This document shows positions 10,790-60,953 of a stretch of 64,000 nucleotides of DNA, in pieces. Source of the stretch: Narcine bancroftii. Lineage: Eukaryota. The stretch's first letter is position 1. Each line of letters opens with the position of its first letter. The stretch spans positions 242,110,001-242,174,000 of the forward strand of contig NC_091470.1 in the NCBI RefSeq assembly GCF_036971445.1, in the 5' to 3' direction. The notes under the pieces are model-generated. The model did not search any database and was not told the DNA's origin. It was given only the letters and a program-made list of their open reading frames with translations. Position numbers and translations under genes: made by a program.

Positions 10790-13700
10790 ATTTCTATGAA
10801 AATAGGAATCAATATATCTTTAAATTCTTTATAAAATTCAGATGGGAAACCATCTTCCCCTGGGGATTTATTACTTTATAATGAACTTAATGCTTCCTTC
10901 TAATTTTGTAAAGCATGCACTCAATTCTGCTTGCTCTTCCAAATTTAATCTAGGTAAATTTATTCTTGATAAATATCTGACTATTTTATTATCATATTTT
11001 AAGGACTCTGAGCTGTATAGTTTGGAATAAAAGCTTTATAAAGTTTAATTTATTTCTCGAGGTTTATAATTGATCATATTAAAATAATTTTTAATTGCAT
11101 TAATCATTCTTGAAGTCTGTTCCAATTTCAATTGCTATGCAAAGTACCTTATGTGCTCATTCACCTAATTCATAGTACCTCTGTTTAGTTCTTGTAATCA
11201 TTTTTTTTCCATTCTATAGGTTTGTAATGTATTATATTGAAGTTTTTATTAATTAGTTGCCTATGTTTATCTTTGGAACATCACTTCTGAAGCTATTTTT
11301 CCAAAAGCTTTATTTCTTGCTCCAATTGATCTACTTCTTTCCTAATTTTAGAGGTAAAACATAATTTGTTCTCTTAAGTTATCCCATATTACAAATTTAT
11401 TATTCACTGATTTCAAATGTGTGTTAAAAAAATAAGGGAACTTTTCTTCTTATAAAGTCGCAAAAGTGTTTTCTTTTGAATAAAATTGAATTCAATCTCC
11501 ATCTATATACCAATTTCTCTATACCTGGCATTACAAAAGTCATTATCAAAGGTGAGTGATCAGATAAAATTCTCATTTTGTATTCAACATCTAATATCCT
11601 GCTTTGTATTCGTGCAGATAACAAAAACAAATCAATTCTGGAATAAGAATTGCATCTATTTGGATCAAATAGTCTCTTTCTCTAGGATGACTTTTCCTGC
11701 ATACATCTATTGAATTCATATCCCTCATTTATACCAATGTAGCTTTTGCTGCTTTAGTTCTTACTACTGTAGTTCTATCCATAATTGGATCTAAACAAAA
11801 ATTAAAGTCTCCTCCTATCAAAATATTTTCAAGTACCTCTTCTAAGTTCAAAAAGGTTTCTTGAATAAATCTCTCATCATCTACATTTGGTGCATACAGG
11901 TTTAGAAGTGTCCATAATTTGAAAAATATTTGACAATATATCATCACATATCTCCCAGCAGGAAATGTTACTACATCTTTTTAATTGGAATATGCTTTTT
12001 CACTAAAATTGCCACTATTCTTGCCTTGGAATTAAAATAAGAAGCTACTACATGTCCAACCCAATCTCTATTTTACTTCAAATGTTCTTTTTCAGTTAAA
12101 TGAGTTTCTTGCAAAAAAAGAGCTCTATCTACTCTTGTGGCAGCGCACTCTCTCATGGCATACTGGCACCACTTTGTTCCACTGCGTGGTGGGGAAGCCA
12201 TGAGAAGAGGGTGCCATCAGGGGTCCTCCTTACCCTGTGGTTCCAGCCCAGCACGCGCTTCAGGCAGTTGTTGAGATGTCACCGATCATGCGGTGGCCAA
12301 CCTCACGCTGCCCTTAAAGGGGCACACACAGGATTTGAATTAAACAGTCATTAAGAGCATCCAAGGTATTTGCTGTAGCTCCACTCTCATCTTCTTAATG
12401 TATATTAATACTCTTTTCCTTTTCTTAGTTCTGTTTATCCCATTAACATTATAATTTATAGATTTAATGGTATTACTCATCTTAATAGATCATTAATTCC
12501 TCAGCTTTTGTCTGTGAACCTCCCTCCCACAACTCTTATCATTCTAAACCCAACGTGTTTGCATAAACCTCCTTGGCAATCCAGATAAAAAGAAAAAATA
12601 AAGAAAAATACAATTAAAAAATACTTATGACAAAGCTTGTAACTATATATAAACAAAATTAATCCTCCCCAATAGGTGTTATAATAATAAAATCCAACAC
12701 CACCTCCCTCTATTTTACGGGCTGTGACTGGAGTCACAGCTGCCCACATGATCCAGTAGAAGTCAGAACCTCATACCCTCCTCAAACTCCCTAGTACATT
12801 TTCCTTCCCTCCTTAAATCTTTCTGAAACATTTATTTTAAAAAACCCATAGACTAAACAAAGATAATAAAGATAAAGAAAAGGTATTTAGTATACAATAT
12901 TCTAAATTACTTTGCCTTATGAAAACTACCAAAGGAATTAAGTCCATCAAAGAAACAAAAACATCAACAAATCTTTTTACTCTTCATTCTTCCTGAATTG
13001 GCAGATTTTATGCAAAATCTTCAGCTTCCACAAAGCTCGAAAAGAACTTATTTTCTCCATCAGGTATGAAGATCTTCAAGGTTGCTGGATGGTGTAATAC
13101 AAACCGATATCCTTTCTCCCATAAAATCTTCTTTACCAGATTAAATTCTCTTCTTTTTAATAAATCGGTGCTTATATCAGCATAAAATAAAACTTTGGCC
13201 TCTTCACACTCAAGCAGGCCTCCTGTTAACCTTGCCTTCCTGCCTACCAAAGATGAAATCTTCTTACCTTGGTATTGAAGAAATTTAGTTAACACAGATC
13301 GTGGATTGAGTTGGAAGCAGTTTTCCTCTAAGAGTTGTATGTGCTGTTTCAATCTCTATAGGATGTTCAAAATATTCAGCCCCCAACATTTCAGGAAATC
13401 ATTCTGAAAAAAAGCCAATTAGGCCTTGTTTTTCTACATTTTTTTTTAAGACCCATTATCTTAATATTGTTTCTCCTACTGAAATTTCCCAGTATATCCA
13501 CCTTTTGCTGTAGCTTCTTATTCTCCATTGTTAAAACCATGGTAGTATCTTCCACTATAGTCATTCTGTCTTCCACATGTTGTATCACCAAATTCATAGT
13601 ACCTCTGTTTAGTTCTTGTAATCATTTTTTTTCTGTTCTATAGGTTTGTAATGTATTATATTGAAGTTTTTTTTATTCATTAGTTGCCTATGTTTATCTT

Positions 13701-14215
13701 TGGAACTTCACTTGTTGCATTTTTTCATTGAGCCTTCTAATTTGTCCAGTTTTTTCTTCATTTTATTAATTGCCTCCAAACTTTATTTATTTCTCCCTTT
13801 ACATTTGACAGTAATTCAATACTAGATATATCTTTAGCTTTACTTTTGGTTCTGCTTTTAACAATTTTAACTCTTTTTCATTACCTCTTCTTCCTGCTGC
13901 TGCTCTCCATCTTGGTCTCCATCCTCTTCGCTGCTAGATGCCTGTGAGCTGAGTCTTCTTCCTCCGATAGCATTGCTGAAGGCCCCCATTGTTTGCGCAT
14001 CTGCAGATCACTTCCGGTTCCTTCTTGGACCACTACTCTCCATCGCTACGGGAGAGCGACATCAAATGAAGGTCCCACAAGTGGATCACTCACCCGAGGA
14101 GCAGCTCGAATGGTAGCTCCCTGCTTCTCATCAACAGGAGGTGTCAAGTCTCTTCTTCTCTTCGCCTTGCGTCGGGCGCCAGGTAAGGCTGCAGTAGTAT
14201 TGTTTTGGAGACATG
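10790..14215 (-). mobile_element. Second degenerate L1 (GC-rich 5' region, ORF1, endonuclease, start of RT)
   Basis: Minus ORFs NFSRRNNIKIMGL, FYADISTDLLKRREFN..HPATLKIF, LNLYAPN..IGGDFN and ILSDHSPL. The 5' boundary is approximate. Confidence 0.85.
12136..12383 (+). mobile_element. Solo LTR (Gypsy-type)
   Basis: TG...CA termini, 4-bp TSD CTCT (12132-12135 and 12384-12387), internal ATTAAA. Removing it rejoins the L1 endonuclease motif YIKKMRVD..LQETHL. Confidence 0.8.
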
Positions 14216-23582: not shown

Positions 23583-23640
23583 ATGGCCACATGCAGCATT
23601 TTCATTCTGCTATTTCTGGTCTTTCAATGTGGAGCTGAAG
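23583..23640 (+). CDS. acvr1l: acvr1l coding exon 1: signal peptide (exon starts at 23570)
   Basis: Acceptor TTTTGTTTTTCAG|. Encodes hydrophobic MATCSIFILLFLVFQCGAE. Phase-1 donor AAG|GCAAGT joins the next exon as GAT (Asp). Confidence 0.78.
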
Positions 23641-23791
23641 GCAAGTTAAATACAAAATTAAGTAATCATTGCTTCCATTTTTTCCCCCACTGTGGGTTTG
23701 TCAAATGTGTACAAATTGTTATTTTTCCTGTTTTAAAAATGTTATATTTAGGCCATTGGACACATTAAATTGTAACTCACCAATATTGGTA

Positions 23792-24564
23792 CAGGTACAT
23801 AATCTTTTATCTGAAACTCTTGGGACCAGCCACTTTTTGGAATTTGGATTTTTTTTGGGTAATGGAATAATAGTAATGGTGGTACGTTAAGTAATTGCAC
23901 TGATTTCAGATTCATGCAAAACAAAGACAAACTCCAACTAGAGGGGTCCCTGGACCCGGGGCGGGGGGGGGGGGGGGGGGTGCGGAATATTCACGCTCAC
24001 TTTCAAAGTTCAGTTCTTCATGGAATTTTCTATTATGTTTCATAACAATCAAACCAGTCAGTGGTATTCGTTCACTTCTTCGTTGTCAAACCCACTCAAT
24101 CAGAACGTGATCAAGATCTGAGGTTTTTTTGCCCTATGCAATGTCTTCCTACTTTTCATTAGTTTCTGGTCATCACTATCACTATAAAACTTTAACAACT
24201 TATCTTTCTGCTTCTTTAAGTCATATATGGTGGTAGTTCCCACACCATAATCTTCAGTAAGATGCCGCACAGATACACCACGATCAAGCTTCTGCAATAA
24301 CTCTACTTTCTGCGCTATTGATAATAACAGATGGTTTCTTTTCTGCTTCTCTCCATTACCCGTAGGGGACTCTGCAGCTTTTTTTCACATTTTCAGTCTT
24401 CAAAGACTGAGCAGCAGAGGCACATCTGACTGGTAGGAGCACTGAGACACGGTGCTGGATGGGGGTGGGTTGCATTGGAGCCAAGCACGAGCTTTGGCGT
24501 GCAGACAACATCCATGGAAAAAATGTTTGGTTTTCAGAATTTTGGATGAAAGATTATGTACCTG
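23792..24564 (-). mobile_element. Internally deleted Tigger transposon retaining the N-terminal CENP-B/psq HTH coding region
   Basis: TIRs CAGGTACATAATCTTT(T/C)ATC with TA TSDs; minus ORF QKLDRGVSVRHLTEDYGVGTTTIYDLKKQKDKLLKF. Confidence 0.9.
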
Positions 24565-25124
24565 TATAAATGGGTATTCATGGATTGGCAGGGCCATTAA
24601 TTGGATGAAAGGGTCTGCCTTATGCTTTATGACCCCTACTTTAGCTTCAAGTAATCATCTCTATTTCTAGTTGCTGGTGTATTTATTTTTAATATGGCTT
24701 TGTGTGTGCCCTAACAATTATTTTTCTTTTCAATAGAATTCTCCCCTTTTGTGGAATGTTATTTTTTGTTAGTTTCTTACCAATGTTTGAAGGAAAAAAT
24801 GGGAAAATTCTGCAACAAAAAACCAATTGGGATAATAAAAATCTTCCCACAGCACTTTGGAGGGGGAAGGTGGGAGAAGAATACAAATAATATTGCTCAT
24901 CCTTCATCACCTTAAGGAAAGCAGAGACAACCATATTGCATTAAACTGGAGTCGTGTTGGGGCAGATCAGGTCTTTTCTATTGTGGACAATAAATGTAGA
25001 CCCATTTTCCAGCAAAATTTCATGGCCAACATGTTTTTCTGCTGAACTACATGTATCTAAATGTATTGAATTCATTTTCACAACTTGGGTGGGATTTGAA
25101 TCTCTGACCACTGAATTGCTGGTC

Positions 25125-25903
25125 AAATCACAAGATAGATTTGGCCTATCAAGTCTACTCCACTATGAGCTAAACCATTCTCATATATAGTTCCAATTTC
25201 CGGCCTTTTCCCCATATCCCTTGATACCTTGACTAATTAGATACCTATCAATCTCATCCAATGATCGGGCCTCCACAGCTGTAAGTGGTAAAGAATTCCA
25301 CAAATCCACGACCCTCTGACTAAAGAAATTTCTCCTCATTTCTGTTTTAAATGGGCACCCTCTAATTCTAAGACTGTACTGTCTTGTCCTGGGCTCACCC
25401 TCCAAGGGAAACAACGTATTCACTTCTTCTCTGTCCAATCCTTTCAGCATTCAAAAGGTTTCTGTGAAATCCCCTCATTCTTCTATACTCCAATGAATAA
25501 AGTGCAAGAGCCGATAAATGCTCCTTATATGTTAGATTTTGCATTCCAGGAATCATCCTTGTAAATCTTCTCTGAACTCTCTCCAACATCAGTCCATCCG
25601 TTCGAAGATAAGGGCCCGAAAACCACATGCAATATTCCAAATGAGGTCTCACCAGTGCCCCATAGAGACTCATCAACACCTCTTTACTCTTATACACTGT
25701 TCCTCTTGAAATGATTGCCAACATTTTCTTTAGTGCCATTCTAACCTGGTGGGTATCCTGCACGAGGACCCCCATGTCCCTATGCACTTCTGAATTTTGA
25801 ATTTTCAATTTTCTCCCCATCCAAATAATAATATGCCTGTTTATATCTTCTTCCAAAATGTACAATTGTACATTTCTCAATATTTAATCTCATCTGCCAT
25901 TTT
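25125..25903 (-). mobile_element. CR1 LINE 3' fragment
   Basis: LYGALVRPHLEYC, LERVQRRFTRMIPG, RRNFFSQRVVDLWNSLP. Confidence 0.88.
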
Positions 25904-26245
25904 GTTTACTGTGTCTTTTTACCCATTAATAAATTACCTAATTTCTTATGTGTGAAATTTGACTTTGTTAAAAATATAACAAAGTATTTCTTCTTCTGAA
26001 GTCCAAATGTCAATGGGACAACCAGTTTTACTGAGGATTTTATCAACTTGATGGCTGTGGAAACATTGACAAAAAAAAGATTAAATGGTGTGTTTTTGGC
26101 ATGGCTTATTGAGAGGACAAAAACAAAGTCACTTAAATAAATAAAAATCTCTCCAGAGCTAGTGTGGAACTATGCAAGATAACTGCATGTGGTCCCCAAA
26201 ATATTGCTTGTTTTGTATAAAGTGGTTTTGTCTCATTAAGTAATA

Positions 26246-26426
26246 CAAGCAAACCCCGCTTTATGAATACTCTACAAAAATTAGCTTGTACAAAGAAACC
26301 AGTGTTCGTTTTTTCCTTTTACGAACATTGCCTCCGATAGTAGTCAATGGGTCTTTGCTTTATGAATTTTCGGTTTACGAATGGTTTGTCAGGAATGCTC
26401 TACCTTCATGAAGCAGGGTATACTTG
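26246..26426. mobile_element. Tigger-like MITE
   Basis: TA|CAAGCAAACCCCGCTTTATGAA ... TTCATGAAGCAGGGTATACTTG imperfect TIRs. Confidence 0.6.
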
Positions 26427-26663
26427 AACAGGTGTTTTATTGGGATAATGTTGTTTGGTTAGGCTGACATTGGCAGGGAATGGTGGATTCATCAAAATAG
26501 TCCTTTCCCCAGTTGGGAAAATTGCCATTTATAGTAAGTGGCAATGTGGTAGGCTTTTACACTTTTTTAAAAAAATTGATAAATATGATTTTATGTTGAA
26601 TTTTAAAGATGCTTGTTATCTTTTGGGTGTTGTATAAATTGTAATTTTTTTGTATGTGCATAG

Positions 26664-26915
26664 ATAACGACAATCCAAGCCAGTTTCAATGTGTCTGTGA
26701 GGGTAATTCATGTGGGAGGCCTGTATGCTATGGCCAACCATGTTTTGCTTCAGTGATACAAAATGGAGAGGTTCCTGTGTACAGAAAAGGTTGCTTCAAT
26801 GATGACCAAAGTGGACTAATGTGCAAGACCCCACCCTCGGAAACACAAGTTGTGCAGTGTTGCAATGGAAATCTGTGCAATAGGAATATGACAGCAATGC
26901 CACTTCTTTCTCAAG
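26664..26915 (+). CDS. acvr1l: acvr1l coding exon 2: Cys-rich ligand-binding ectodomain
   Basis: TAG| acceptor and G|GTAAAA donor. Ten cysteines (CVCEG..CCNGNLCN) and the N-glycan sequon NMT. Confidence 0.95.
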
Positions 26916-42089: not shown

Positions 42090-42245
<156 letters not shown>

Positions 42246-44760: not shown

Positions 44761-44920
44761 TGTTAATTTAAATTCCAGTGTAATTATGCTAGGCACCATG
44801 AAAAATGTGAGTTAAATTGACAGCATTACAACATTTTTAATTAAGGCTATTGTGCTTCGATTTCTATGTTCACCCAAGAAACTTGAAGAAAAACAAACAT
44901 TTCTTACCCCCATTATATGA

Positions 44921-45130
<210 letters not shown>

Positions 45131-46108
45131 TAATTTATGCAAACACCCTGCGAGTTCATATTATGTTTTATTGTTCAGTTCACGATCAGAATCGGAGAGG
45201 AGAAACCATTCTCCAGAATTCATGAAATAATATCCTTACCATATACTGATGCTGTAAATCACCCTCTTAAATGGTTTGAAACAAGAAAGTCTGGAGACGC
45301 CGTGATTGTAGTCAAGGTTGACAAAGGGCTTTGGCCTGAAACATTGGTTATATATTTTTGCCTCCTATGTATGCTGTGGGACCTACTGAGTTTCTCCAGC
45401 ACTTTTGTGTATTTACTCTTAAATTTGTTTTCTCTACTAAAATCTGGAAATACTGTAAAGTCAAAGGCATCTCTGAAGAGAGCCTGCAGTATATGCAAAT
45501 TTATTAATTCGGCAAACATCTGTGTGAATTAGGATTTCGGGCATTAACACCTAAGCTATGGTGAAAACCATCACAAAATAGTCGTCCGCCATTCACAACA
45601 ACAGTGCATTGTTAAACTGAAGAGAAATCCAAAGACAAGCACTAGTCATTGCCTGCTAGAGAACGAATGCTGGGGCATCATATTCTTGCGTGCCATTTGT
45701 AGTGGAAGGAATATTGTCCTACAGGACATGATGTTCACACATTCTGAACTCATGGTATCTCTATTCCATGCACAAATCATGTAAAACTTGGGGGCGCACT
45801 CTTCCCCACCACACTACTAAACAGCCCCCACCAAAAAAAAATCAGCTAAAAGTATCACTAAGGCATAAATCAGAAGGCACACCAGAATCACTGTTACAAG
45901 CAAGAAAAAGCAAAGCTGTAAATCATTTGTGAAAATCTACTATTTTAAAGAGAAGCAAAAGAGTAAATTTCAAAGTAGTAAAAACATAATCGTTCTTACA
46001 CTAAATTTCAATTCATCTTTCTCTCCGGTAAAACCAAAAGTCCCAGCCAATTTAATTACCAAGGTTGGCAAGTTTCCTTTAGGTTTGTGTAGAAGCTAAA
46101 AGAAACTA

Positions 46109-46853
46109 CAGGGGTGGTCCCTGACTTACAACCTTAATTGGGCTCAAAGGATCCGTCGTATCTCGGAATGAACGTAAATCAGAATTTGGCCCGCGCGCAT
46201 GGAATATTGAAGACTTAAAGCAAACTTTTTAATCAAATCTTTTTTTCGTTGTAGATTTTTGTTAGTCAGTGTTCTAGAATCCATAGCCTGGGGGTGCAGC
46301 CATCTTGATTTTTGTGTGCATGCGTGAGACATGGATTGGTGCATGTGCGGTTGGCTTGTGTATTGGAGTTCAGTTGGCTCATGCACAAGAGTTGAGGCAC
46401 AAATTCAAAGTTGTCAGGGTGCTTAACTCTCATGTGTGCGCCAACCAATCTCTAATACGTGAACCCACCGCTCATGCGCCAACCGAACTCCAACAGGCGA
46501 ACCCATCGTGCATGAGCCAACTGAACTCCCATGAGCGAAACCACCACGCATGTGCCAACCAAACTCCAATATAGGAACCTACAGTACATGCACCAACGAA
46601 CACCAATGCATAAACCCACTGTATGCGCTAACTGAAGACTCGTGCGTGTGCACAGGAATCAAGATGGCCGCGCCCAACCTATGGACCCTGAAATGCCGTC
46701 TAACAAGGTAAGTACACACATTTTGGCTCTTAGATGCCCTATATCCCTGTTATAGTTTGTCAAATACAACATAAGCTGTGTAAATTTTATATTTTTTCTT
46801 AAAAATACAATTTGGTCGTATGTGCGAATGGGTCGTTAGTCGAGGAGTGTCTG
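46109..46853. mobile_element. Tigger-like non-autonomous element with an internal palindromic repeat array
   Basis: TA|CAGGGGTGGTCCCTGACTTACAACC ... GGTCGTTAGTCGAGGAGTGTCTG|TA imperfect TIRs. Confidence 0.65.
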
Positions 46854-47088
46854 TAAAAGATTTTTTGCTAGATCTCTGATTACCATTTCGCATGTAAAAT
46901 CTGCTTCTCAATCTGGAGTTTTTTCTCATTTTAAATATCTTTCATCTGCATTTTGTATTGAAACTCTAATGGGCTTCTCAACATGCTTCTCAAAGCTTGA
47001 AATGGAAGGAATATAAATTAACTCAGAATTGATGAAAATACAAGTCTGCTTATCAAGAAATACTGCACAAGGAAAGGCTACAGCAGTA

Positions 47089-48060
47089 ACATAAACATAA
47101 CATAACAATTACAGCACGGAAACAGGCCATTAGGCCCTTCTAGTACCGAACCAAACACCCCTTTCTAGTCCCACCTCCCTGCACAATGCCCATAACCCTC
47201 CATCTTCTTCTCATCCATATACCTGTCCAACCTTTTCTTAAATAATACAATTGACTCCGCCGCCACTATTTCTCCCGGAAGATCATTCCACACGGCTACC
47301 ACTCTCTGAGTAAAGAAGTTCCCCCTCATGTTACCTCTAAACCTCTGCCCCTTAATTCTTAACTCATGTCCTCTTGTTTTAATCTTTCCTCCTCTTAACG
47401 GAAATAGTCTATCCACATCCACTCTGTCTATCCCTTTCATAATCTTAAATACTTCTATCAAATCCCCTCTCAACCTTCTACGCTCCAAAGAATAAAGACC
47501 TAATCTGTCCAATCTCTCCCTATACTCTAGATGCTTAAATCCAGGTAACATTCTGGCAAACCTTCTCTGCACTCTCTCCACTCTTGTTTATATCCTTCCT
47601 ATAATTAGGCGACCAGAACTGCACACAGAACTCCAAATTAGGCCGCACCAACGTCTTATACAATCTCAACATCACCTCCCAACTCCTATATTCCATGCAA
47701 TGATTGATAAAGGCCAGCATACTAAAAGCCTTCTTCACCACCCTATTCACGTGAGTTTCTACCTTCAGGGAACGATGTACCGTCACTCCTAAATCTTTCT
47801 GCTCTTCTGTATTCCTCAATGCTCTCCCATTTACCACGTATGTCCTATTCTGATTCTTCTTGCCAAAATGAAGCACCTCACACTTATCAGCATTAAATTC
47901 CATCTGCCATTTTTCAGCCCACTTTTCTAAGCAGCCCAAATCCCTCTGCAGTCCTTGAAAACCTTCTTTATTATCCACTATTCCACCTATCTTAGTATCG
48001 TCTGCATATTTACTAATCCAATTCACCACCCCATCATCTAGATCATTAATGTATATAACG
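47089..48060 (-). mobile_element. Young CR1 LINE 3' fragment
   Basis: IYINDLD..KYADDTK, LYKTLVRPNLEFC and NFFTQRVVAVWNDLP, with one frameshift; short-repeat tail. Confidence 0.93.
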
Positions 48061-48845
48061 ATATATATACCAGCACAAGGGCACAAAGAGATGTTAGGAT
48101 GGAGAGATAAACAACCTCCTTGTTTGCAGGCTTCAATTTTTGCAATAGCTCAAGTAGTTGAGCAAAAGCAAGCAGTGGTGCAAATTACCTGCCTAAACTT
48201 AGAGAAAGTTGACAAATAGTGGGAATATTAAATGTCAAGACATCAAATGGGTTAATGTTAATAATTATTATATTTAGGTCTAACAGGCATGAAAAAAATT
48301 TACCATGACAGATTACACATGGTAGTTTTTTTCTTTTTAAAATATTTTTATTGGTATTTAATATATAAACAATTGAACAATACAATGTGCAATACATTTA
48401 AAAATATAGGAAAAATATTTCGAATATGTACATAATTCAAAGGACCAACACACATTGGTAATAGTGTAAAATATAACATAAAACAAAAAGAAAAATCGAA
48501 ACCAACCCAAAAGAAAGAGAAAGGAAAAATGTTAAGTTCTTTTGAAATGAATTATAATTTTTTTAAAAAGGTATACAATTGTCTTTCTCTTCTCATTCTG
48601 TAAGAATTTTTATCAAAAGTTGTATTATTCATGGTTGAGCAAAGCCATCACCTGTTATCCAGTTAAAGAAAGAAAAAAAAATGCCTAAACCAATTTAAAA
48701 AGGACCCCCCCCCCCCCCCCTTTAGCCCAAAACCCCGACCACTAAGCAAAGTTAAGAAATGATATGTGGAAATCAAGTGACATCAACCTGGAACTCAACA
48801 GCATAAGCACCAAAGCTATAGTTAATTTTTGAATCTTTAGCATAT

Positions 48846-51800
48846 TGCAGTGGGCCGAGTGACAGCGCAGGTGGACGGGCCGAATCGCCGCAACAGTTCG
48901 CCATCCCAAGATGCCGCGGGCCCTCCTTCACTACTGAGAAGAAGCCAGCGGTTCACACCACGTGTGAGCTAAAGGAAACCCACTTCTGTGTGGCGCACCG
49001 CCGGCCGAGGAGTGATGCAGTGACGCGCTGATGTCACTTCTTGGCGCCAGCGCATACGTCATTGGAAGTGAGCATCCCCCACGGGGCAACACAGCGAATT
49101 GAAACATTAAAGTCAGTTTTTGGTTCACCCTCATACTGGACATCTCTTCATTTCGTAGCGCTGCCGCAGCATTTGCTAAGGTGGCGACCCCAATGGTTCC
49201 AATGACTTGGAACTTGCATTGAATGCATCAAAATACAAGAATCCACTACTACTACTACAGTTGCAAAGACTGCAACTGGCTGAGTCCCAGTTCCACTTCA
49301 GGGGAATCGTCTGAGAGAACACCAAATTCTGGCATGTCGTCAGTGCTTTGGATGCTGCTACTGCTGCCAAAGTAAGCTCCTTTGTGGAGAACCTGCCAAT
49401 GGAGCGCAAGTACGATCAGTTCTGGCGGTTCCTCCTCAACTCCCTAGAACTTCAGATCTTAAATATGCAGGGCCTAGGTGACAGGAATCCCTCCCAGCTC
49501 ATGCATGAGATGGTGGCCCTAGCAGATGGGCATACAGACTGTTTCCTCTTCGAGGCCCTGTTCCTCTCCCAGCGGCCAGTTTCCTCACTGTTTCAGACAT
49601 GGATTTCAGCGCCCCACACTTGGTAGCCAAGGAAGCAGACAGGCTCCTCCGTACCCCACTGCAGAGGTCCCTCCACGTGCAATCCGGCTACGCCATTGGC
49701 ACCACCATCACGACCAGCCCGCCGGAAACCCCAATAGTGGCTGCGGCACAGCAGCAACGCAACGGGTGCATAGAGAAGCACACCGCTGATGTGACTGAAA
49801 TGCCCGGTGCACCCCAACGTGCTCATACCCCACTACCAAACCTAACATGGCAACAGGAAACAGGCAAGCCAGCTGCCGATAGTGGTCTTAGCGGTTGGTG
49901 CCCTGAAAGGCCTACTCTACCTCAGAGACCAAAAGTCGAAGAGGGACTTCCAAGTTGGCACGAGCGCAGAAATCAGCCTCATCCCGCCAACGTATGTCAA
50001 GGCAGAATCAACCCCAAGAGCCTTCCCCTGCAAGCGGCCAATGGATCCTCCATCCTGAGCTACAGGACCCATCTGGTCACCATCCACATTGTGCACTCCC
50101 ATTAGAAGATTGTGTCTGCAATTACGGCCGTGGGACAGGCGCTTCTCGGAGCGGACTTCCTATGGGCACATGAACTGCTGGTGGACATGACAAGAAGCTG
50201 GTTAGTGAATGCTACCACATTCCAGTCTTTCCCCCTCACCCTGAGGCAACATTCCTTCCGACCATTAGCAATCCACGCCCTGGACCGAGATGAGTTCACC
50301 TGCCTACTGGCCAGGTACCCAGCCTCACTGGCCCCAAACCTCCATGACTCTAACCCGCCACATTGCATGGAGCTCCACATAGAGAATGCCAGGCCCCTAG
50401 TGCATGCACGGGCCCGGTGCCTCCCACAAGACAAGCTCCAACATGCCAAGGCCGAGTTCGCTGCCATGGAGGAGCTGGGGATTGTCCGCCGTTCAAACAG
50501 CCCCTGGGCCTTCCCACTCCACATGGTGCAGAAGAACTCTGGTGGTTGCCGCCCATGCGGCGACTACATTAGGGTGAACAATGTGACAGTCCCAGACAGG
50601 TACCCCATCTTGCACATCCAGGACTTTGCCATGAGGCTACAGGACTGGCATATTTTCTCCAAGGAGGACCTTGTCAAAGGATACCACCAGATCCCGGTAC
50701 ACCCCAGCAATATTCTGAAAATGGCAATCATCACACCCTTCAGCCTTTGAGTTCCTGCCGATGCCCTTTGGACTAAAAAACTGCTGCCCAGACATTCCTG
50801 CGACTGATGGATGTGGTCAGTAGGGACCTCAATTTTATCTTCGTCTATTTAGACAACATCCTTATTGGCAGGCCCGCCATCAGCACTCACAGGAAGCATC
50901 TGACCCTCCTGTTTGACAGTGCCAATTTGGCTCAGAGACAATAGACTTCTTGGGACACCGCATCACCCCAGAGGGAGCCACGCCACTGCCTGACAAGGTA
51001 GAAGCCATTCAAAATTTCTCCAATCCGAGCACGACCAAAGGCATGCAGGAGTTCATGGAGATGGTTAATGTTTACCAACCCTTCCTACTGGGAGCGGCCA
51101 CCCTCATGCAGCCCCTGTTCGTTCTCGTCAAACTCTGCCAAAAATGCTTCAGTGGACACTGGATGCCACAGAAGCTTTCCACGCCATGAAGGTGACACTG
51201 GCGCACCCTGACTCCACCTCCCCCCAGCCCTTACAACAGATGCAGTAGGCACAGTGCTGGAGCAATGAGCCTGGTGCCCCCTAGCCGCCTTCAGTAAGCA
51301 CCTTCGATTGCCAGAGCTAAAATACAGCACGTTCAACTGTGAACTGTTGTCCCTATACCTGGCGATACGGCATTTCTGGTACCACCTACACAGACCACAA
51401 ACCACTCACCTACGCACTCGGCAAGGTCCTGGACCCGTGGTCGGTGAGGCAACAGCAGCACCTCTCCTACATCTCAGAGTATGCCATGGACATTTGTCAC
51501 GTCACAGGCAAGTCCAACATGGTGGCCGACGGGCTGTCCAGACCCACGATCGCTGCAGCCTCAGGAGGGCTCGACATTGCTCAGCTTGCCAAGGACCAGA
51601 CGGAGGACGCAGACGACCAGGCCCACAGGATAGCCATCGCCAACCTGAAGGTCAGCGATTTCTTCCCCTCACCAGGAGGCCCGTCCCTGCTATGCGACAT
51701 CTCCACAGAGTTTCCCAGACCTATCCTACCTGTGACCTGGCGATGGAGAGTTTTCAACCAGATCCACGGCCTATCCCACCCTTCCATAAAGTCCACGGTC

Positions 51801-53128
51801 CACCTACTGTCCGACAAGTTCATGTGACGTGGCCTCCACTGAGACGTGACCCTGTGGGGCCGAACCTGTTTACAGTGTCTGCGTGCCAAGGTACACCAGC
51901 ACACGAAAGCCCCATTCCAGACTGTTGAGCTGGCGCAATGCCGGTTCAAGCATGTCCACGAAGACATGAGCCAGGAAATGTGGTAGTCGCGACGATTGAC
52001 TGTTTGACCTGCTGGCCGGAGGCAATACCTATACCTGTGTGGAATACAGAGAAGTGTGCGAGGGCTTTCCTATCCACCTGGGTTGCGCGCTTCGGAGTCC
52101 TGACCCACATCACCTTGGACTGAGGGGCACAGTTCACCTCCTCACTCTGGTCCAACCTGACTAAATTTTGCGGCAGTCAAGTACACCGCACCATGGCCTA
52201 CCACCCCCAAGCAAACAGCCTGGTTGAGCATTTCCATCGCCATCTGAAGGCTTCCTTGAAATCCAGCTGCATGGCCCAAACTAGGTGGATGAGCTCCCAT
52301 GGGTACTCCTAGGCATTCACATGGCACTGAAGGAGGACCTGCCAGCCTCGTTTGCAGAGATGGTATATGGTTTCCCACTCACCATTCCCGGGGACATCCA
52401 TTTCACCCCCCCAAAACCCCGGCCCACAGCCCAGTGCCTTAGACATCCTCCAGAGGTTGAGGGTGTAAGTGGGTGAATGGCTCCTCCACCACTGTCTTGA
52501 CATGGCTCGCTGCGCAGCTACATTCCCACTGACTTGCAGTCCACCCACTATGTTTTCATAAGGAGAGGTCAGCAAGGAACACCCCTACAGTGCCCGTAAG
52601 AAGGCCTGTTCAAGGTACTACAGAGAGACGATGTGTTTACACTGGACATCGGCAGCCAATAGGACAGATTCACATTCGACCACCTCAAAGCCACGCACCT
52701 CGACTCCGGACCCCCAGGTCGGATGCTCGGGGGGGCGGTGGCTATTCTGGGGGGCGGTGGCTATTCTGGGGGGCGGTGGCTATTCTGGGGGGCGGTGGCT
52801 ATTCTGGGGGGAGGTGTAGCGGGCCAAGCAACTGCGCGGGTGAATGGGCTGAATCGCTGCAACAGTCAGCCATCCCAAAATGGCGTGGGCCCTCATTCAC
52901 TACTGAGAATAAGCCCACGTGCGAGCTAAAGGAAACTCCCCGTTTCTGTGTCATGCACTGCCAGCTGAGGAGTGGCGCAGTGACATGCTGACATCACTCC
53001 TGGAAGCCGACGCATACATCTCCAGAAGAGGGCGTTCCCCATGGGGCAACGCAACAAATTCAAATAGTAAAATCAGTTTTTGGTTCACCCTCGGACTGTG
53101 TGGACGTCTCCTTGCAGCAGTTGCTACA
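48846..53128 (+). mobile_element. Ty3/Gypsy LTR retrotransposon, defective, with both LTRs
   Basis: TSD ATAT (48842-48845 and 53129-53132). LTRs 48846-49179 and 52815-53128; PBS-like TGGCGACCCC (49182-49191); G-rich PPT. LLGADFL, RPCGDY..PDRYP, YLDN and integrase motifs. Confidence 0.93.
52730..52811. repeat. Perfect 19-bp minisatellite (GGGGGGCGGTGGCTATTCT)x4 plus G6
   Basis: Units start at 52730, 52749, 52768 and 52787. Confidence 0.95.
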
Positions 53129-54334
53129 ATATTTTTTTCTAAACTTAGATAAGACCCATCATTTAGACATTGTGTGTGTGAAGGTGGAGTAATGTCTTTC
53201 CATTTAATCAGAATTGCACATCTGGCTATCAAGTAAAGCTAAAATTCAGCTTTGCGTTGGGTCAATAAGACTTCATCTTCTTGAAATGGTCTGAATAGAG
53301 CAATTAAAGGGCGAGGATTTGACCTTAAGAATCACTGATATGTTTGAAAAATATCTTTCAAAAATGTTTCTAAATTGGAGCAAATCCAGAACATGTGGAT
53401 CAAAGCATCAGCAATTTTGCATTTATCACATAGTGGATTTATATCTGAATAAAAATGAGATCATTTAACTTTGGACATATGTACTCTATCAACCACTTTA
53501 AATTGCAACAAACACCGTTGTGCACAAAAGGAGGTCGTATTAATCAAATTACATATAGAGTTCCAAACAACATCCAAAAATGATAGATTCAAATCTTGTT
53601 CCCAATCGTTCTTGATCTTAACTAGCAAAGCTATTCTTAAATATAGCAAGTTATTATAAATAATAGATATTCAACCTTTATGGGAAAGCTGTAAATCAAA
53701 AATATTTGCCTCAGGAATTCATGGAAAATCCGGGCTGTTTGAACAAAATGTATAATTTGTAAATATCTAAAAATAATGAGTTCTGCAAGTTCAATTTTAC
53801 TACCAATTGTTCAAGGGAAGCAAAATTGATTTGAATAAAAAGGTCTTTAAAAGCCCTATCTAATAAAGAAGGTTGGAAAAAATGATTAGATGTAATAGAG
53901 CTGGCAAGAAAAAAATTCTGAAATCTAAAGAACCTTCTGAATTGTGTCTATATTCTCAAATGGCAGTTTTTTCAGGTTAGAGAAAAATAATGTAAAGCTT
54001 TATTTGTATGGTGAAAAAGATGGAAAAATTACACAAAAAATGGTTAAAAGGTTTAAGTGAACAGTTTCTTCACTTCAGTTTTTGAAATTTCTAATTGCTC
54101 AGATATAAATTACATTGTAGTTTGTTCCAGTTAGTCAGTCTATTAAAAAAAATCTTAATGCTGTTTTCAGAATTATGGTCCGATTTACCATCATTGGTTG
54201 TTTTAAAAATGTGGACAATATGTAAAATAAAAAAAAATAAGAATGATAAAATATTATTTGGAATGATGAGTTTGTTTTGGAAATATCCAATTAATGCAAA
54301 CCAAAGAGGCAGGGAAAAGGTGTTTTAAACCCTA

Positions 54335-54550
54335 GGGGGTGGCAGAGTTAGCTGTACAGCGCCAGTGACTGAGGTTTGAATCTGGCACTGACTGTAAGGA
54401 GTTTGTACATTCCCCTGTGTCTGCTTGGGTTTCCTCCGGGGGCTCCAGTTTCCTCCTCCTCTTCCAAACGTACCAGGGTTGGTCAATGAGGTGTAATTGG
54501 GTAGCATGTGCTCGTGGGCCAAAAGGTCCTGTTAAAGTGCTGTATATCTA
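54335..54550 (+). mobile_element. V-type tRNA-derived SINE
   Basis: GGTTTGAATC B-box, GGGTTTCCTCCGGGGGCTCCAGTTTCCTCC V-domain, CR1-type tail. Confidence 0.8.
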
Positions 54551-54727
54551 AGTTAAAATAAATGAACAAGATGTGGTAACTTAGAATGCTTTGAACATAG
54601 CAGCTCACAAGGAGAAGCAATATATGTGGTGTATTTCTATGTTATTAATTTCCTCTTTATGCCTTAATGTCTTGTATCTTGTTTCATGTTCTTATTATTG
54701 ATAGTACATATTTTGATTTTGTTGAAG

Positions 54728-55003
54728 GTTTCATTGCTTCAGATATGACGTCGAGGAATTCTAGCACTCAACTATGGCTCATCACCCATTATCATGAAAA
54801 TGGTTCACTTTATGACTATTTACAACGTAACACTGTGGATACTGTAGTCTGTCTGAATTTTGCCTTATCTATAGCCAATGGTTTAGTGCACCTCCACAAT
54901 GAAATTTTTGGAACTGAGGGAAAACCTGCAATTGCTCACAGAGATTTGAAAAGCAAAAATATCTTAGTTAAAAAGAACCTGCATTGTTGCATTGCTGACC
55001 TAG
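54728..55003 (+). CDS. acvr1l: acvr1l coding exon 6: L45 loop and catalytic loop
   Basis: GAAG| acceptor and G|GTGAGT donor. [28 protein letters not shown]; ALK1/2-type L45 loop (SMAD1/5/8). Confidence 0.98.
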
Positions 55004-55092
55004 GTGAGTCCATAAAAGTGCCACATTATCAACACTTTTGAAGAAAGGGACTCTAAATGACAGTAACTATTCATCAGAATCTCTCTCTTTAG

Positions 55093-55290
55093 GGTTAGCA
55101 GTGATGCATTCACAGACCAATAATCAACTGGATGTTGGAAATAATCCTAAAGTGGGCACAAAACGTTATATGGCACCAGAAGTACTTGAGGAATCTATTC
55201 AGGTTGACTGCTTTGATGCTTACAAACGTGTGGACATTTGGGCATTTGGACTTGTATTGTGGGAAGTAACTAGAAGAACATTCAGTAATG
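55093..55290 (+). CDS. acvr1l: acvr1l coding exon 7: activation segment
   Basis: TTTAG| acceptor and G|GTAAGT donor. [29 protein letters not shown]. Confidence 0.98.
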
Positions 55291-55454
55291 GTAAGTATTA
55301 CTACAATAGATATCTTTTTTGGGGTATTTTTAATCAAATTGAATTTAAGAAAAGTAAATTACTAGAAAAATTTGTACAAATAATGCATTTTTTAATAATA
55401 TGTTTAACCTTTATATAGTATCCAAAAGTGCGGTATATAAAGTGCATTGATTCT

Positions 55455-56270
55455 AGAATGATTCCCATAGGCTGGAAGATAACAAGTATAACACTGCTGT
55501 TCGAGACCAGTTAACCTGATACCAATAGTGAAGGAAATGCTGCAATAAGTTCTTAAAGAATGATAACAGGACACACAAAATAAAAGTAGGAATGAGCAAC
55601 TATGAAAGAAAAATTACATTTCATGAACCTATCAGTTGCTTGAAGTTGTAATATAATAGATGAAGGAGAAGCAATATATGTGGTGTATTTAAGCTTTCAG
55701 AAGACCTTCAATAAGATATCACGCAAAAGGTTATACAGAATTGAAGTGCATGAATTGAGGATTGGTTAATGGACATAAAACTGTAGGAACTGTCGACAGG
55801 GAGACTGTGGCTAGTGGGGTGTTACAAAGATGAATTCCACAGCTGTTAACAATCTATGGATAAGGAGATGAAAATGCAATATATTCAATAGAATCCATGT
55901 AATTGGGGAGAACAAGGGGGTGGAAATAGTGTGATAGATATGAAGTGATTCACTTTGGCAGAAATGATAGAAAAATTATTTTTTTTAAATAGTAAAAAAT
56001 TAAAACACATAAATTAACATTAATCAGATACAAATGTAATTAGCATGATCTTTATTCCAAGAGGATTGACTACAAGAGTAAAGACATATTACTATTACAT
56101 TAGACTCTGAAAAGACCTGACCTGGAATATTTTTCGAGAGCGAGTGTCCCAACATGAAAAGTATACTTGTAATGGAATGAGTGCAACAATTTCTTGAATA
56201 TGGATGCACCTGATGTGAGAAATTAAGCAGGCGTAGCCTCTAGAATTTAGAAGAATGTGAGGTCATCTCA
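55455..56270 (+). mobile_element. Highly degenerate CR1 RT fragment
   Basis: IDEGEAIYVVYLSFQKTFNK resembles the CR1 motif VDVVYLDFQKAFDK; later SGVLQ-like sequence. Confidence 0.6.
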
Positions 56271-57189
56271 CATGGCTTGGCATGCCTGCTTTTTGTTCAT
56301 ACCTTGAAAGGATTGCATTGTGTAAGAACATTTACAAGGATGCGAACAAATGGGGAATGTCGAGATTATGGACCATGCAAGGCAAATGGGAATGGTTTCA
56401 TGTAGTGTTATGGTCAGCACATCCTATGCAGAAGAGTCTTCCTGTGCTGTACTGTTTTATGTTCTGGACATGCTGTACCTCCTGGAATATGGATCCGAAC
56501 ATGCAGTTGAAGCCTCACTGCCCATCTCTTTTTTTTTTAAAAAAAGTACATTAGATACCATGCAGTCTTTACCTGTGGCTAAAGATGATGCTACTGTCTC
56601 TGACAGAGCCACCACTTCCTTTCCACGTTCCAAGGAGGCACATGGTCATACCCTGGGGAGTTGTACACCATCATGCACTCCAAGACTGCCTACACTTTCC
56701 AACATTCTTGGGATGTCCCAGAGTTCTTCACTGACAGTTAATAAAAAATATAGTTATTTTGTCATGTAGAAAGTAATCGATTTGTACATGGGGAGTTCCC
56801 ACAATTAGAAAACTAGCAAAGCTGAAATGAGCTGTCATAGGAATGTGGTTGAGGGATAAATATCGGTGAGTACTCGAGCAATTGGTCGTAGAAACCCTTT
56901 CTCTGTTCGTTCTTATGCATTTTGTGAAGTCAATGACTGAAATGCTCACCTCATTTTCTCTGCATCCCAATATCAATTATAGCATCTCTGTTGTGGCCTT
57001 GATGAGATTAGCGACCAGTAATTCCATGCAGAGTGCAAATCTTTTTGGGATTTCTCTGCACTGTGCTGAACAAATCAGATGCTCAGTGGTTTTATAAAAA
57101 AAAACTATTTTTGGGCACAATTATGAGCATGTCATTCCTGAGGCTAGGGAAAATTGAGAAATTTGTGGATCATTGGGATCTCTTCTGAG

Positions 57190-59790
57190 CGAGGTCTGAC
57201 CTGTACAAAATGGACCGGAAAGGGACAAACATCCTGGTGTGCAAGTTTACTTGAGCTATTGGGGACAATTTAAACTAATTTGGCAGAGTGATAGGAACCA
57301 GAATGTGAGTGCAGAGGTGAAGGCGGAAAGAATGATGCAATGTGTTGTGGAAGAACAGACAGTGCAGGGAGCATAAATGTCGTGATTTGGAGAGTTTGAA
57401 ATGTGTTTGTTTGAATGCAAGACTTGTTCGGAATAACGGAGATGAACTTGTAGCTGTTATGGAGACTTGGCTGGTGGAAGGACATGATTGGCTGATGCAG
57501 GTACTGGGGTTTAGGTGTACTAAAAGGAATAGGATGGGAGGTAAGAGAGTGGTGGGGGGAGTAGCATTAGTGGACAGAGATAGTATCACGGCTATAGAAA
57601 TGGAGGATGCTCGAGAGACAGTGTCTACTGAGTCGGTGTAGGTGGGTCAGAAATAAGGGAGCAATCTCTATACTGGAAGTAATCTATAGGCTGCCAAGCA
57701 GCCCTCGGGACACTGAGGAACAGATTAGTAGGCAGATTTTGGAATGGTGCAGAAATTACAGGGTTGTTGTTGCAGGAGTCTTAAACTTCCCAAATATTAA
57801 CTGGCACCTCCTGACGCCAAAAGAGATAGGTGGGGCAGAATTTGTCAGGTGTGTCCAAGAAGGATTCCTGATACTGTATTTGGAACAGGCACACTGGATC
57901 TAGTGTTGGTTAATGAACCTGGTCAGGTGACAGACCTCTCAGTGGGGGAGCATTTCGGTGAGAATGACCAGAACTCCCTGTGGTTTAGCATGGCTATGGA
58001 CAAGGATAATAGCAGACAAAATGGGAAAGTATTTAATCGGGGAAGAGCTAATTATGATGGGATGAGGAAGAGCAAATTGGAAACAGGTGTTCATGGGAGA
58101 AAGCACAGAAGTAATGTGGAGAATGTTTGAAGACCATTTGCGCAGGATTCTGAATAGGTTTGTCCCACTGATACAGGGAAAAGATGGTAGGAAAAGGGAA
58201 TTGTGGTTGAGAAAACAGTTGCGGCAGCTGCTTAAGAGGAAGAAGGAAGCAGGCATTAAAGGAAGGTTCATGAAAATTGCATCATTGCCAGAAGGAGCTT
58301 AAGAAAACTCTTGGGAGAGCTCGAAGGGGGCATGGGAAGACCTTAGCAAGAAGGATTAAGGAAAACCCCAAGATGTGACGAACAGAAGGATGATGAGAGT
58401 GAAGATAGGGCTGCTTAAGCTTAAAGGAGGCAACATGTCCCTTGAGATTGGAAAGGTCCGAAATGAATAACTTTGCTTTATTAATTAGCAGAGAAAAGGA
58501 CCTTGATCAAGGTGAGGTCAGAATAAAAGCTTGTGTGGTTGTTAGGAAAGTGGTGGAGTTGACCTGAGGTGTTCAGAGCTGGAGGAGGTATCCCAAGGTG
58601 TCCGGATTGACAGAGTCATGGGCCCAGTTCAGGGATCATGAGAATGCATGTCCAGGATCGCTGAGGTCTCGTGGTGGATGATATCATGGCTTCAACCTTG
58701 TGATCTTCTGAAAAACATAACATTGGGGCTGGACAGGATATACCCCAGGTAGCTGTGGGAAGGGAGGAAAGAGATAGCTGGGGTGTTGGCTATGATCCTT
58801 GCATTCTCCTTGGCCCCAGGGCAGGTGCTGGAAGATTGGAGAATGGCAATTGTGGTCCCCTTTTTTCTTTAAAAACAAAAGGTAATAGTGAGAATCCTGG
58901 GAACTATAGAGTCTTTGTCAGTGGTGTGCAAACTATTGGAGAGGAATTTTAAGAGCAGGATTTATGAGAATTTGGAGGCGTACATTCTTGTCAGGGATTG
59001 TCAACATGAATTTATTAAGGGAGGAATGTGTGTCATGAGCCTAATTAGAAAATAGAACAGGAGTAGACAAACCGTGGCTCGCGAACCACATGCGATTCTT
59101 TGACATGAATGTGTGGCTTGCAGAGGTATTTGGCTGTGTAGTGTTAGTGGGTGTGGCTTGTGATTGCATGATTGTGGCACATGTGGCTGTGTTACGGGCA
59201 GTGGGATTAGCGGAGTGTAAGTGTGATCCAGGCTGCCTGCCCATCTGAGCTCCTGGCCGCACCCCCACCCCACCCAAGCTTACAATATCCTGGCCATAGA
59301 CTCTTATCTAGTCGAGAGGTCATTGCAACTCTATAAATTTCATGTATTGTGTCCAGTTCTTGATCACCTCATTTTAGGAAGGATGTGGAAGCCATGGAGA
59401 GGGTGCAGAGGAGATTTAGCAAGATGTTGCCTGGATTAGAAAATAAGCCATATGAGATAAGATTAGCAGAGCTAGAACATTTCTCTCTGGAGCAAAGAAG
59501 AATGAGAGGTGATTTCATAAAGGAATACATGATTCTGAAGGCAGAGATAAGCCAGACAGCCAGTGCCTTTTTCCCAGGTTGGGAATAACGAACACCAAAG
59601 GACATTTTACAGATTGAAGGGATGAAATTTTGGGAAGACATCAGGGGTAAGTTTTTTTTTTTGCACAGAGTTATGGATGTCTGGAATGCCTTGCTGGGAT
59701 GATGATGGAGGCTGAAACATTAGGAGCATTTAAGAGGCTCTTGGGCAGGCACATGAATGAAAGAAAAATAGAGGATTATAAGGTAGGAAG
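57190..59790 (+). mobile_element. Degenerate CR1 LINE (endonuclease, RT remnants, 3' end) with internal insertions
   Basis: LKCVCLNAR..VAVMETWL, IYRLP, LNFPNINW, LDLVLVN, NPGNYR, MERVQRRF. A hAT-like end is inserted near 59058. Confidence 0.82.
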
Positions 59791-60953
59791 GGTTTTGTTT
59801 TTTTGGTTGGTTGTAATTAATCGAAGATGGCAGTGCAGCTGTAGTCTGCAGCAGTATCTCCGGACCGAATGCAACAGGAACTCCCCCAAGTAGGCGCTGT
59901 GCACAATCTTTGAGCAGACGAGGATGGACATTGAAATTTGGGGAATGCGAAGCAAGAGCAGATCTCTGAAAGAGGCCACAAAGTGTACAGACTTGACTGC
60001 TGAGAGGCGGAGCTTCCATTGCAGACGATGGCTGAGGGGATTGAGGCTTCTGTTGGGACGATGTGGCCTTCAGTCTTTGGCGCCGGAGTTGACATTGCCT
60101 GTTGCTGGGGATCGTGGAGACTGTATGGCGGAGTTGTCCCGAGGTGTTCAGAGCAGCAGAGCTGGAGGAGGTGTCCAAATTGACAGAGTCATGGGCCAAG
60201 TTCAGGGATCCTGAGGATGCGTGTCCAGGATCGCTGAAATCTCGTAGTGGATGATGTCGTGGCTTCGATCTTGAGAGGTGGTGAACAGTGAGGTGGTTTC
60301 CCTTTAAAAAAAAATATTGCTGCCGTACAATTTAACATCCAGAGTCCAGCAGATACCGGTAAACCTGGTCTTGATAGCGGTGCGGTAGTAGCCCGCAGCA
60401 GTCTCTTTGGATTGGGTGAATGGTCTCTTCAATTGTGCTAGTGGACATTTAAAAAATCTAAAGACATATTTCGACCAGTCTATTCTGTAACTATTGCCCA
60501 GCCTCAGAAAATTAATGTATTGTGGCACTTTTTAAAAAAAAATACCTTTTAAGTAATTTGTGTGTAATTGGAGATGTGTGTGTAACAGAGAATGTTTAAT
60601 TTAATGATATTTCACTGTCCTGCGGGGGGATAGTGGTGGCTAAGGCCCAAGATGGCAGTGCAGCAGTCGCTCACAGAGGCCTCTTCGGGACGTGGTGCTT
60701 CTGTTCCTACGCTGTTTATAGTTGTTACGTAGCACCACGGGTTCAGGGAAACGTCTCTTTCTTAAAGCAACAAAAAGCCTATTTTCTGTGTAGGTCAGCA
60801 CAATATCAGGGGCTGGAGGGCCTGTACTGCGCTGTAGCTTTCTACGTTCCAATCAATTTAATCATTTCTGAATTGTCAGATTTATTGTGAATAATTTTAC
60901 ATTGTGAAATTTACATTTCATTTGCTTAGAATTCACGTTCTTTTTATTTGCAG

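What the first reader, a model, noticed from the sequence alone, without database searches (positions are those of the whole stretch)
11161..60276. Recurrent short-range copy-paste: several local templated insertions in one 64-kb window
Seen: four non-tandem duplications (28, ~125, ~150 and 333 bp; donors 1.0-2.4 kb away; direct and inverted; no poly-A or TSD), plus an inverted patch at 44677. They affect L1, Gypsy and CR1 DNA alike, which points to a host process rather than one element's enzyme. Inference: unusually frequent germline templated-insertion repair (Pol theta or MMBIR-like) in this lineage or locus. I cannot estimate the background rate by eye.
Basis: partly seen in the sequence, partly recalled or inferred. 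Interest (0 to 1): 0.7.

Follow-up and report, generated by a model that had tools for sequence, protein, structure and literature searches.

The report
Local copy-paste repair scars, electric ray
Four short pieces of DNA in an electric ray were copied from 1-2.3 kb away, likely during faulty DNA repair; this is a known kind of scar and is about as common elsewhere in this genome, and whether rays make such copies faster than mammals is untested.

Summary
All four duplications are real. Three interrupt a repeat whose other genome copies show the empty site, and the 28-mer occurs exactly twice in 3.3 Gb. The 333-bp inverted copy shares 11 rare letters with its neighbour, so it was copied locally, long after the Gypsy element inserted. 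The 44681-44758 patch is an inverted piece at a deletion; its donor is gone. These match published repair-mediated duplications (Pace 2009) and localized non-tandem duplications (Frith and Khan 2018). The locus is no hotspot: 4 in 64 kb against 37 in 700 kb elsewhere under the same filter (P=0.44). Genome-wide density is about 14-35 per Mb, peaking at 1-2 kb in both orientations. That far exceeds Pace's 0.08-0.65 per Mb, but Pace excluded repeat-derived donors, which these mostly are. Per substitution the excess over human is roughly tenfold, which a shark-like 17-fold slower point-mutation clock could explain. No like-for-like control genome was available, and polymerase theta is untested. 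The scan noted the same scars before in other windows of this genome.

The parts
11161..11286 (+).
   Evidence: 9 library copies run through it unbroken
13585..13713 (+). Acceptor 1: direct copy inserted in the same LINE, replacing about 3-7 bp; about 1-2 bp left and 3 bp (CTT) right microhomology, read by eye
   Evidence: Other copies resume after a 2-4 bp gap; empty sites; 121 of 126 aligned columns to donor, 78-89% for 12 of 14 other copies and 92-94% for two partial ones
30556..34890 (-). Gypsy-type LTR retroelement hosting event 2; LTRs 30556-30829 and 34613-34890 differ at 35 of 274 sites
   Evidence: Pfam RVT_1, RT_RNaseH and DUF7041
31986..32318 (+). Donor 2: RT/RNase H region of the Gypsy copy
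33604..33936 (-). Acceptor 2: inverted 333-bp copy; 4-bp microhomology (TGGT) at the left join, 7-8 bp lost, one extra or changed base at the right join
   Evidence: Empty site in 19 of 19 copies examined; 95.8% to donor against at most 89% to others; 11 rare letters shared, 4 donor-only, 7 acceptor-only among 38 copies
44681..44758 (.). Inverted gag fragment at the truncation point of a second Gypsy-type element; donor region deleted, so local templating cannot be shown
   Evidence: Opposite-strand 79% match in 2 of 9 family loci; best match elsewhere in the window is weak
54609..54636 (+). Acceptor 3 (inferred): exact 28-bp copy in an intron about 90 bp before a kinase exon
   Evidence: Exactly two copies genome-wide; one 2762-bp contig spans both copies in 3 runs of one sample; no empty site available
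55663..55690 (+). Donor 3 (inferred): lies in a decayed CR1-like RT relic (motif recalled)
   Evidence: Translation
58551..58703 (+). Acceptor 4: older direct copy interrupting a different CR1-like element; net gain about 130-135 bp; 2-3 bp junction overlaps, uncertain with age
   Evidence: Empty sites in other copies; 82% to donor against 74-75% to 4 other copies; a 286-bp contig spans both joins
60126..60276 (+). Donor 4: native part of the CR1-like element at 59824-60730
   Evidence: 4 other copies run through it
23583..62868 (+). Host gene, ACVR1-like (activin receptor type-1-like). Coding exons near 23583, 26618, 36400, 42090, 44972, 54727, 55093, 60953 and 62725. Events 2-4 and the patch are intronic; event 1 lies upstream of the first coding exon

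Best explanation
The four pairs are local insertions copied from DNA 1.0-2.3 kb away, most likely made in the germ line when a broken DNA end primed on a few matching bases of a nearby template, copied 28-333 bases and rejoined. Shown: donor and acceptor roles for three events, small losses at the target, short junction overlaps, either orientation, and copying long after the host element inserted (event 2). Shown: the window's count is ordinary for this genome, about 14-35 per Mb with a 1-2 kb distance peak. Inferred: the pathway is microhomology-primed template switching (SDSA-like or MMBIR-like; a four-piece chain in another copy favours repeated switching). Inferred: the high density per Mb mostly reflects a slow point-mutation clock that keeps old copies recognisable, plus the stricter filters of earlier surveys.
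For: Empty sites: 19 of 19 Gypsy copies, L1 copies, CR1-like host copies. Local donor: 11 shared rare letters for event 2; 28-mer unique to these two places. Background: 37 candidates in 14 blocks of 50 kb, 10 in 200 kb of flanks, 4 in the window, P=0.44. Pairs 250-3000 bp apart: 41 observed against 7.2 expected. Exact 25-mer pairs at 1-2 kb: 21 against 1.1, 10 of them direct. Six of 7 hand-picked block pairs held up in genome searches. Interrupted-repeat count: 5-6 events in about 352 kb, 14-17 per Mb, 95% CI 5-37. L182 holds a four-piece chain joined by CAA, CCTGG and CCTGC overlaps. Pace 2009 reports the same size, distance and junction features. The epaulette shark mutation rate is 17-fold below human.
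Against: Event 1 shares only 1 minority letter with its donor, and two partial copies elsewhere reach 92-94%, so its local origin rests partly on proximity. Event 3 has no empty site. Junction overlaps of old events are read by eye and were not tested against chance. With stricter background rates (25-33 per Mb, hand-curated) the window's P falls to 0.08-0.16, so a mild local excess is not excluded. The 37 block candidates include LTR pairs, terminal inverted repeats and at least one element-internal repeat. The clock argument uses one shark species with a wide interval (1.4-14.1e-10), not a ray, and a recalled human SNV count. No enzyme was tested.
Confidence: 0.8

Rival explanations
1. This lineage truly makes local templated insertions more often per generation than other vertebrates, for example through heavier use of microhomology-primed repair.
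For: 14-35 per Mb here against 0.08-0.65 per Mb of repeat DNA in ten vertebrates. About 2e-4 events per substitution against about 1-2e-6 from Pace's human-specific set and roughly 2-3e-5 from Frith and Khan's 61 events (the SNV denominator is recalled).
Against: All 5-6 interrupted-repeat events have repeat donors, which Pace excluded. Of the block events tested, none clearly passes Pace's filter: C9a lies in a segmental duplication and C24a showed no repeat match across either copy. A 17-fold slower clock covers a tenfold excess per substitution.
Confidence: 0.2
2. This locus (ACVR1-like introns) is a hotspot for templated insertion.
For: 4 events in 64 kb; P=0.08-0.18 under the strictest background rates.
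Against: Same-filter expectation is 3.4 (P=0.44); blocks range from 0 to 7 per 50 kb and the flanks hold 10 in 200 kb.
Confidence: 0.05
3. The pairs come from the elements themselves: template jumps during reverse transcription, element-internal repeats, or independent insertions of the same family nearby.
For: All donors lie in retroelement DNA. One tested block candidate was an element-internal repeat. Event 1's donor is weakly distinguished from other copies.
Against: Event 2 carries 11 rare changes shared with its donor, so it was copied after that element had aged. Other copies lack the inserts. Event 4 sits in a different element from its donor. Pairs with no repeat match also occur. Family matches are flat with distance, while these peak at 1-2 kb.
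Confidence: 0.07
4. Assembly artefacts.
For: Events 1 and 2 have no direct read-level check here; the runs are one sample that may be the assembly's source.
Against: Three pairs differ from their donors by 4-18%. Short-read contigs span events 3 and 4 with no other letters.
Confidence: 0.01

Closest known systems
Repair-mediated duplications (RDs), Pace, Sen, Batzer and Feschotte 2009, PMC2671141 (parts 1-6 of 8 read: all text up to the acknowledgments; supplements not opened)
   Same: Insertions of 50-619 bp copied from under 5 kb away, peak near 1.2 kb, interrupting repeats, with microhomology, small deletions or filler, no poly-A; some chimeric from two donors.
   Different: Their pipeline kept only single-copy donors, so events 1, 2 and 4 would have been filtered out, and event 3 is below their 50-bp limit. 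No cartilaginous fish was surveyed. Their densities are stated minima.
Localized non-tandem duplications, Frith and Khan 2018, PMC5829575 (part 2 of 7 and passages read)
   Same: Same-strand and opposite-strand local copies, with or without deletion at the target; double and multiple copies; inversion in deletion, like the 44681 patch. MMBIR/FoSTeS suggested.
   Different: Recent variants in one human genome (61 non-tandem duplications), not accumulated events over 0-18% divergence.
Doublets, Thomas et al. 2004 (not held; known here from Pace's description and recall)
   Same: Short exact local pairs; the 28-mer with exactly two copies about 1 kb apart fits.
   Different: Recalled to be mostly same-strand, whereas orientations are balanced at 1-2 kb here. 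I could not check their counts.
Polymerase theta templated insertions / SD-MMEJ (review PMC7407515, passages read)
   Same: Microhomology-primed copying at break junctions, sometimes from several templates, acting in germ lines.
   Different: The passages describe small insertions or templates close to the break (within 200 bp in rice); here 28-333 bp from 1-2.3 kb. No genetic test.

Membership tests
Repair-mediated duplication (Pace 2009) | Donor within 5 kb on the same chromosome, more than 50 bp from the acceptor | tested here: met
   Spacers 1026-2298 bp
Repair-mediated duplication (Pace 2009) | Acceptor is an insertion with an identifiable empty site | tested here: met
   Events 1, 2 and 4 through other repeat copies; not available for event 3
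Repair-mediated duplication (Pace 2009) | Microhomology, small deletion or filler; no poly-A tail | tested here: met
   Event 2: TGGT overlap and 7-8 bp lost; events 1 and 4: small losses and 1-3 bp overlaps read by eye
Repair-mediated duplication (Pace 2009) | Length 50-619 bp | tested here: met
   126, 333 and about 150 bp; event 3 (28 bp) falls below the limit
Repair-mediated duplication (Pace 2009) | Donor single-copy in the genome (an operational filter; the authors state it excludes real events) | tested here: not met
   Donors 1, 2 and 4 are repeat DNA; only the 28-mer is two-copy
Repair-mediated duplication (Pace 2009) | Absence at the orthologous site in an outgroup | not testable with these tools
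   No related genome is held
Doublet (Thomas 2004, definition recalled) | Exact match of 25-100 bp, two copies genome-wide, about 1 kb apart | tested here: met
   Event 3: 2 forward, 0 reverse matches in 3.33 Gb, starts 1054 bp apart
Polymerase theta-mediated end joining | Dependence on POLQ | not testable with these tools
   Needs mutants
Polymerase theta-mediated end joining | Small insertion templated from DNA next to the break | tested here: not met
   Templates lie 1.0-2.3 kb away and reach 333 bp; expectation from passages and recall
MMBIR / serial template switching | Several templates chained by 2-5 bp microhomology | tested here: inconclusive
   Seen in another Gypsy copy, L182 (four pieces), not in the window's four events; SDSA with repeated invasion gives the same picture
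Retrotransposition (target-primed insertion or transduction) | Poly-A tail and target-site duplication | tested here: not met
   None at the joins; target bases are lost rather than doubled

The most novel reading that the evidence does not exclude
The electric ray genome carries some 40,000-100,000 local repair copies, at least ten times the mammalian density under one pipeline, and part of the excess is a truly higher germ-line use of microhomology-primed template switching, not just a slow clock. Cartilaginous fish would then be the richest natural archive of this repair route and a steady source of short regulatory and exon-scale duplications.
Probability: 0.2. Interest if true: 0.6.

Novelty: new member of a known kind. 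Interest (0 to 1): 0.3.

Why it matters
The events themselves are ordinary. What this work adds is a measured background: the scars are genome-wide in this ray, at roughly one per 30-70 kb, with a 1-2 kb reach in both orientations. If that holds under a common pipeline, sharks and rays offer tens of thousands of datable junctions to study how germ-line breaks are patched. It also makes a clear question testable: do structural repair errors slow down with point mutations in slow-clock vertebrates, or run at their own rate? My rough figures suggest similar per-generation rates in ray and human. I found no report of such duplications in cartilaginous fish in the searches, nor in the passages of the Squalomix preprint; subscription papers are mostly not covered.

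Tried and rejected
Target-site duplication around a kinase retrocopy for the 28-bp pair: rejected, because the enclosed DNA is two spliced exons of an intact ACVR1-like gene. Window pairs 30556/34613 and 48846/52815 were set aside as LTR pairs (the first shown, the second inferred), 17610/17732 as near-tandem, and hairpin repeats near 1781, 10650 and 29250 as element-internal. Contigs laid on the Gypsy element were too fragmented to show its junctions; the 330-bp skips at depth about 300 are most likely other family copies. The fourth run (X5, another organism, 0.06 word share) gave no usable orthologous cover. Two of 16 blocks (C17, C27) were pure satellite and were dropped before counting; two scripts timed out, apparently on them. 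The shared-rare-letter test was weak for event 1 and rests on 4 copies for event 4. Twelve of 15 interruptions examined in three other families were not local copies; most match repeats elsewhere. Thomas 2004 and one other paper id were not held. The interspersed-duplication count in the supplements of PMC12350158 was not found; its unseen Table 17 bears on the human comparison. No second vertebrate genome could be run through my detector.

Full report
Setting. The window is G000:C5:242110001-242174000 of a 3.33-Gb genome. It holds an ACVR1-like gene whose exon at 54730-55002 is identical to a protein NCBI names for the electric ray Narcine bancroftii; nine coding exons map between 23583 and 62868.

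Observation. Self-alignment finds all four pairs at the stated places, with unrelated flanks.

Event 2 (333 bp, inverted). All 19 other copies of the Gypsy family examined show the empty site. The insert begins with a 4-bp overlap (TGGT) and replaces 7-8 bp. It is 95.8% identical to the donor 1.3 kb away and at most 89% to any other copy. Among 38 copies, 11 rare letters are shared by donor and acceptor, 4 are donor-only and 7 acceptor-only. The copy was therefore made from this element after it had aged, which excludes its own reverse transcription.

Event 1 (126 bp, direct). Other copies resume after a gap of a few bases at 13585, so that is the acceptor. It matches the donor at 121 of 126 columns, against 78-89% for 12 of 14 other copies and 92-94% for two partial ones; only one minority letter is shared. 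Local origin is likely but less firmly shown.

Event 4 (about 150 bp, direct, 82%). The copy at 58551 interrupts one CR1-like element, while 60126 is native to another. The acceptor is 74-75% like 4 other copies of the donor family.

Event 3 (28 bp). The 28-mer occurs exactly twice in the genome. The copy at 55663 lies in a decayed RT relic, so it is the inferred donor. There is no empty site to read.

Patch. 44681-44758 is an inverted gag fragment at the point where a second Gypsy-type element breaks off; its donor is not in the window. It is an inversion in a deletion.

Read support. Contigs from three runs of one sample span both 28-bp copies (54426-57188) and both joins of event 4 (58496-58781) with no other letters. 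That sample may be the assembly's source.

Is the locus special? I fetched 200 kb of flanks and 16 blocks of 50 kb at round coordinates that I chose, on 14 large contigs. Two were pure satellite and were dropped. One filter (25-700 bp, at least 80% identical, spacer 50-5000 bp, better than any non-local hit in the sample) gave 4 in the window, 10 in the flanks and 37 in 700 kb, 0-7 per block. The window's expectation is 3.4, P=0.44. The 37 include LTR and inverted-terminal pairs; with my hand-curated 25-33 per Mb, P is 0.08-0.16. The locus claim fails.

How dense is the genome? Pairs 250-3000 bp apart (at least 85%, at least 25 bp) number 41 against 7.2 expected from between-block matches in 0.964 Mb including the window, and the excess is gone by 20 kb. 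Exact 25-mer pairs give 21 against 1.1 at 1-2 kb, 10 of them direct; fragments of one event may count twice. Seven hand-picked block pairs were checked by genome search: two showed empty sites, one interrupts a repeat and is low-copy, three matched nowhere else among scored candidates, and one was element-internal. A second estimate used interrupted repeats. Three of 38 Gypsy copies carry a local copy in the element (L182, L206, and L183, where it replaces the end). Of 15 interruptions picked by eye from the tables of three other families, 2 are clear local copies and 1 is probable. Together that is 5-6 in about 352 kb, or 14-17 per Mb (95% CI 5-37), probably an undercount because searches favour unbroken copies.

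Comparison with what is known. Pace et al. 2009 described this class: mean 162 bp, maximum 619, peak near 1.2 kb, microhomology, deletions and filler, no poly-A, at 0.62 per Mb of repeat DNA in human, 0.19 in zebrafish and 0.08 in chicken. They kept only single-copy donors and call their count a minimum. All my interrupted-repeat events have repeat donors, so the 20- to 50-fold gap to human is not like for like. Frith and Khan found 61 non-tandem duplications in one human genome. Divided by a recalled 2-3 million derived SNVs, that is 2-3e-5 per substitution, against about 2e-4 here (divergences assumed at 6-10% per lineage). The epaulette shark's mutation rate is 7e-10 per generation, 17-fold below human (passages read). 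Applied to the ray, both species come to about 1-3e-13 events per base per generation. This is rough inference, but it shows that no special repair activity is needed. From Schloissnig et al. 2025 (PMC12350158, passages) I take only that human inverted duplications have a median of 284 bp and mostly 1-15 bp microhomology.

Mechanism. Shown: insertion with small loss, short overlaps, both orientations, 1-2 kb reach, no dependence on element type, and one four-template chain joined by CAA, CCTGG and CCTGC. Inferred: a free 3' end primes on nearby DNA, copies, releases and rejoins. SDSA with ectopic invasion and MMBIR-like switching both fit. Classical polymerase theta insertions are described as small and recalled as templated close to the break, so they fit less well; this was not tested.

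Earlier notes of this scan report the same scars, five per window, elsewhere in this genome and single cases in other genomes. They agree with my reading, which I had reached before looking, and gave the lead to Frith and Khan. They are not independent support.

Verdict. Real, known in kind, and ordinary for this genome. The open point is whether cartilaginous fish differ from mammals per generation or only per substitution. Interest 0.3.

Noticed in passing
L182:2036-2664 (G000:C9 near 168.46 Mb): A 630-bp insertion in a Gypsy LTR built from four local pieces (three direct, one inverted; donors 0.65-2.6 kb away; 89-97% identity) joined by 3-5 bp overlaps. A near-identical arrangement appears on contig C106.
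   Followed up: partly
window 23583-62868 (+): ACVR1-like gene with nine coding exons mapped; the exon at 54730-55002 is 100% identical to a protein NCBI names for Narcine bancroftii and 97-98% to shark and chimaera proteins.
   Followed up: yes
window about 12135-12380: A second insertion (about 245 bp, GC-rich) in the same L1-type element, with no local donor found by exact words of 13 or more within 30 kb; perhaps a solo LTR or small element.
   Followed up: partly
window 17610-17821: Near-tandem duplication (91 bp, 93%, 31-bp spacer) at the end of a LINE 3' fragment, next to a 14-bp tandem pair at 17980-18008.
   Followed up: no
window 15487-16491: G-rich low-complexity tract with a 217-bp two-copy tandem repeat at 93%.
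   Followed up: no
G000:C17:70.00-70.05 Mb and C27:40.00-40.05 Mb (L120-L124, L145-L149): Both 50-kb blocks are wholly tandem repeat, possibly centromeric satellite.
   Followed up: no
L106:784-3085 (G000:C11 near 60.01 Mb): Two inverted local copies (105 bp at 97%, 182 bp at 87%) lie 18 bp apart at one site and matched no other scored place in the genome.
   Followed up: partly
G000:C9:200004560-200005310 and C9:199842833-199843548: A local copy pair that is itself repeated 161 kb away at about 90%, so it likely predates a segmental duplication.
   Followed up: partly
L212:3448-3682: A short in-place inversion with deletion inside another Gypsy copy.
   Followed up: no
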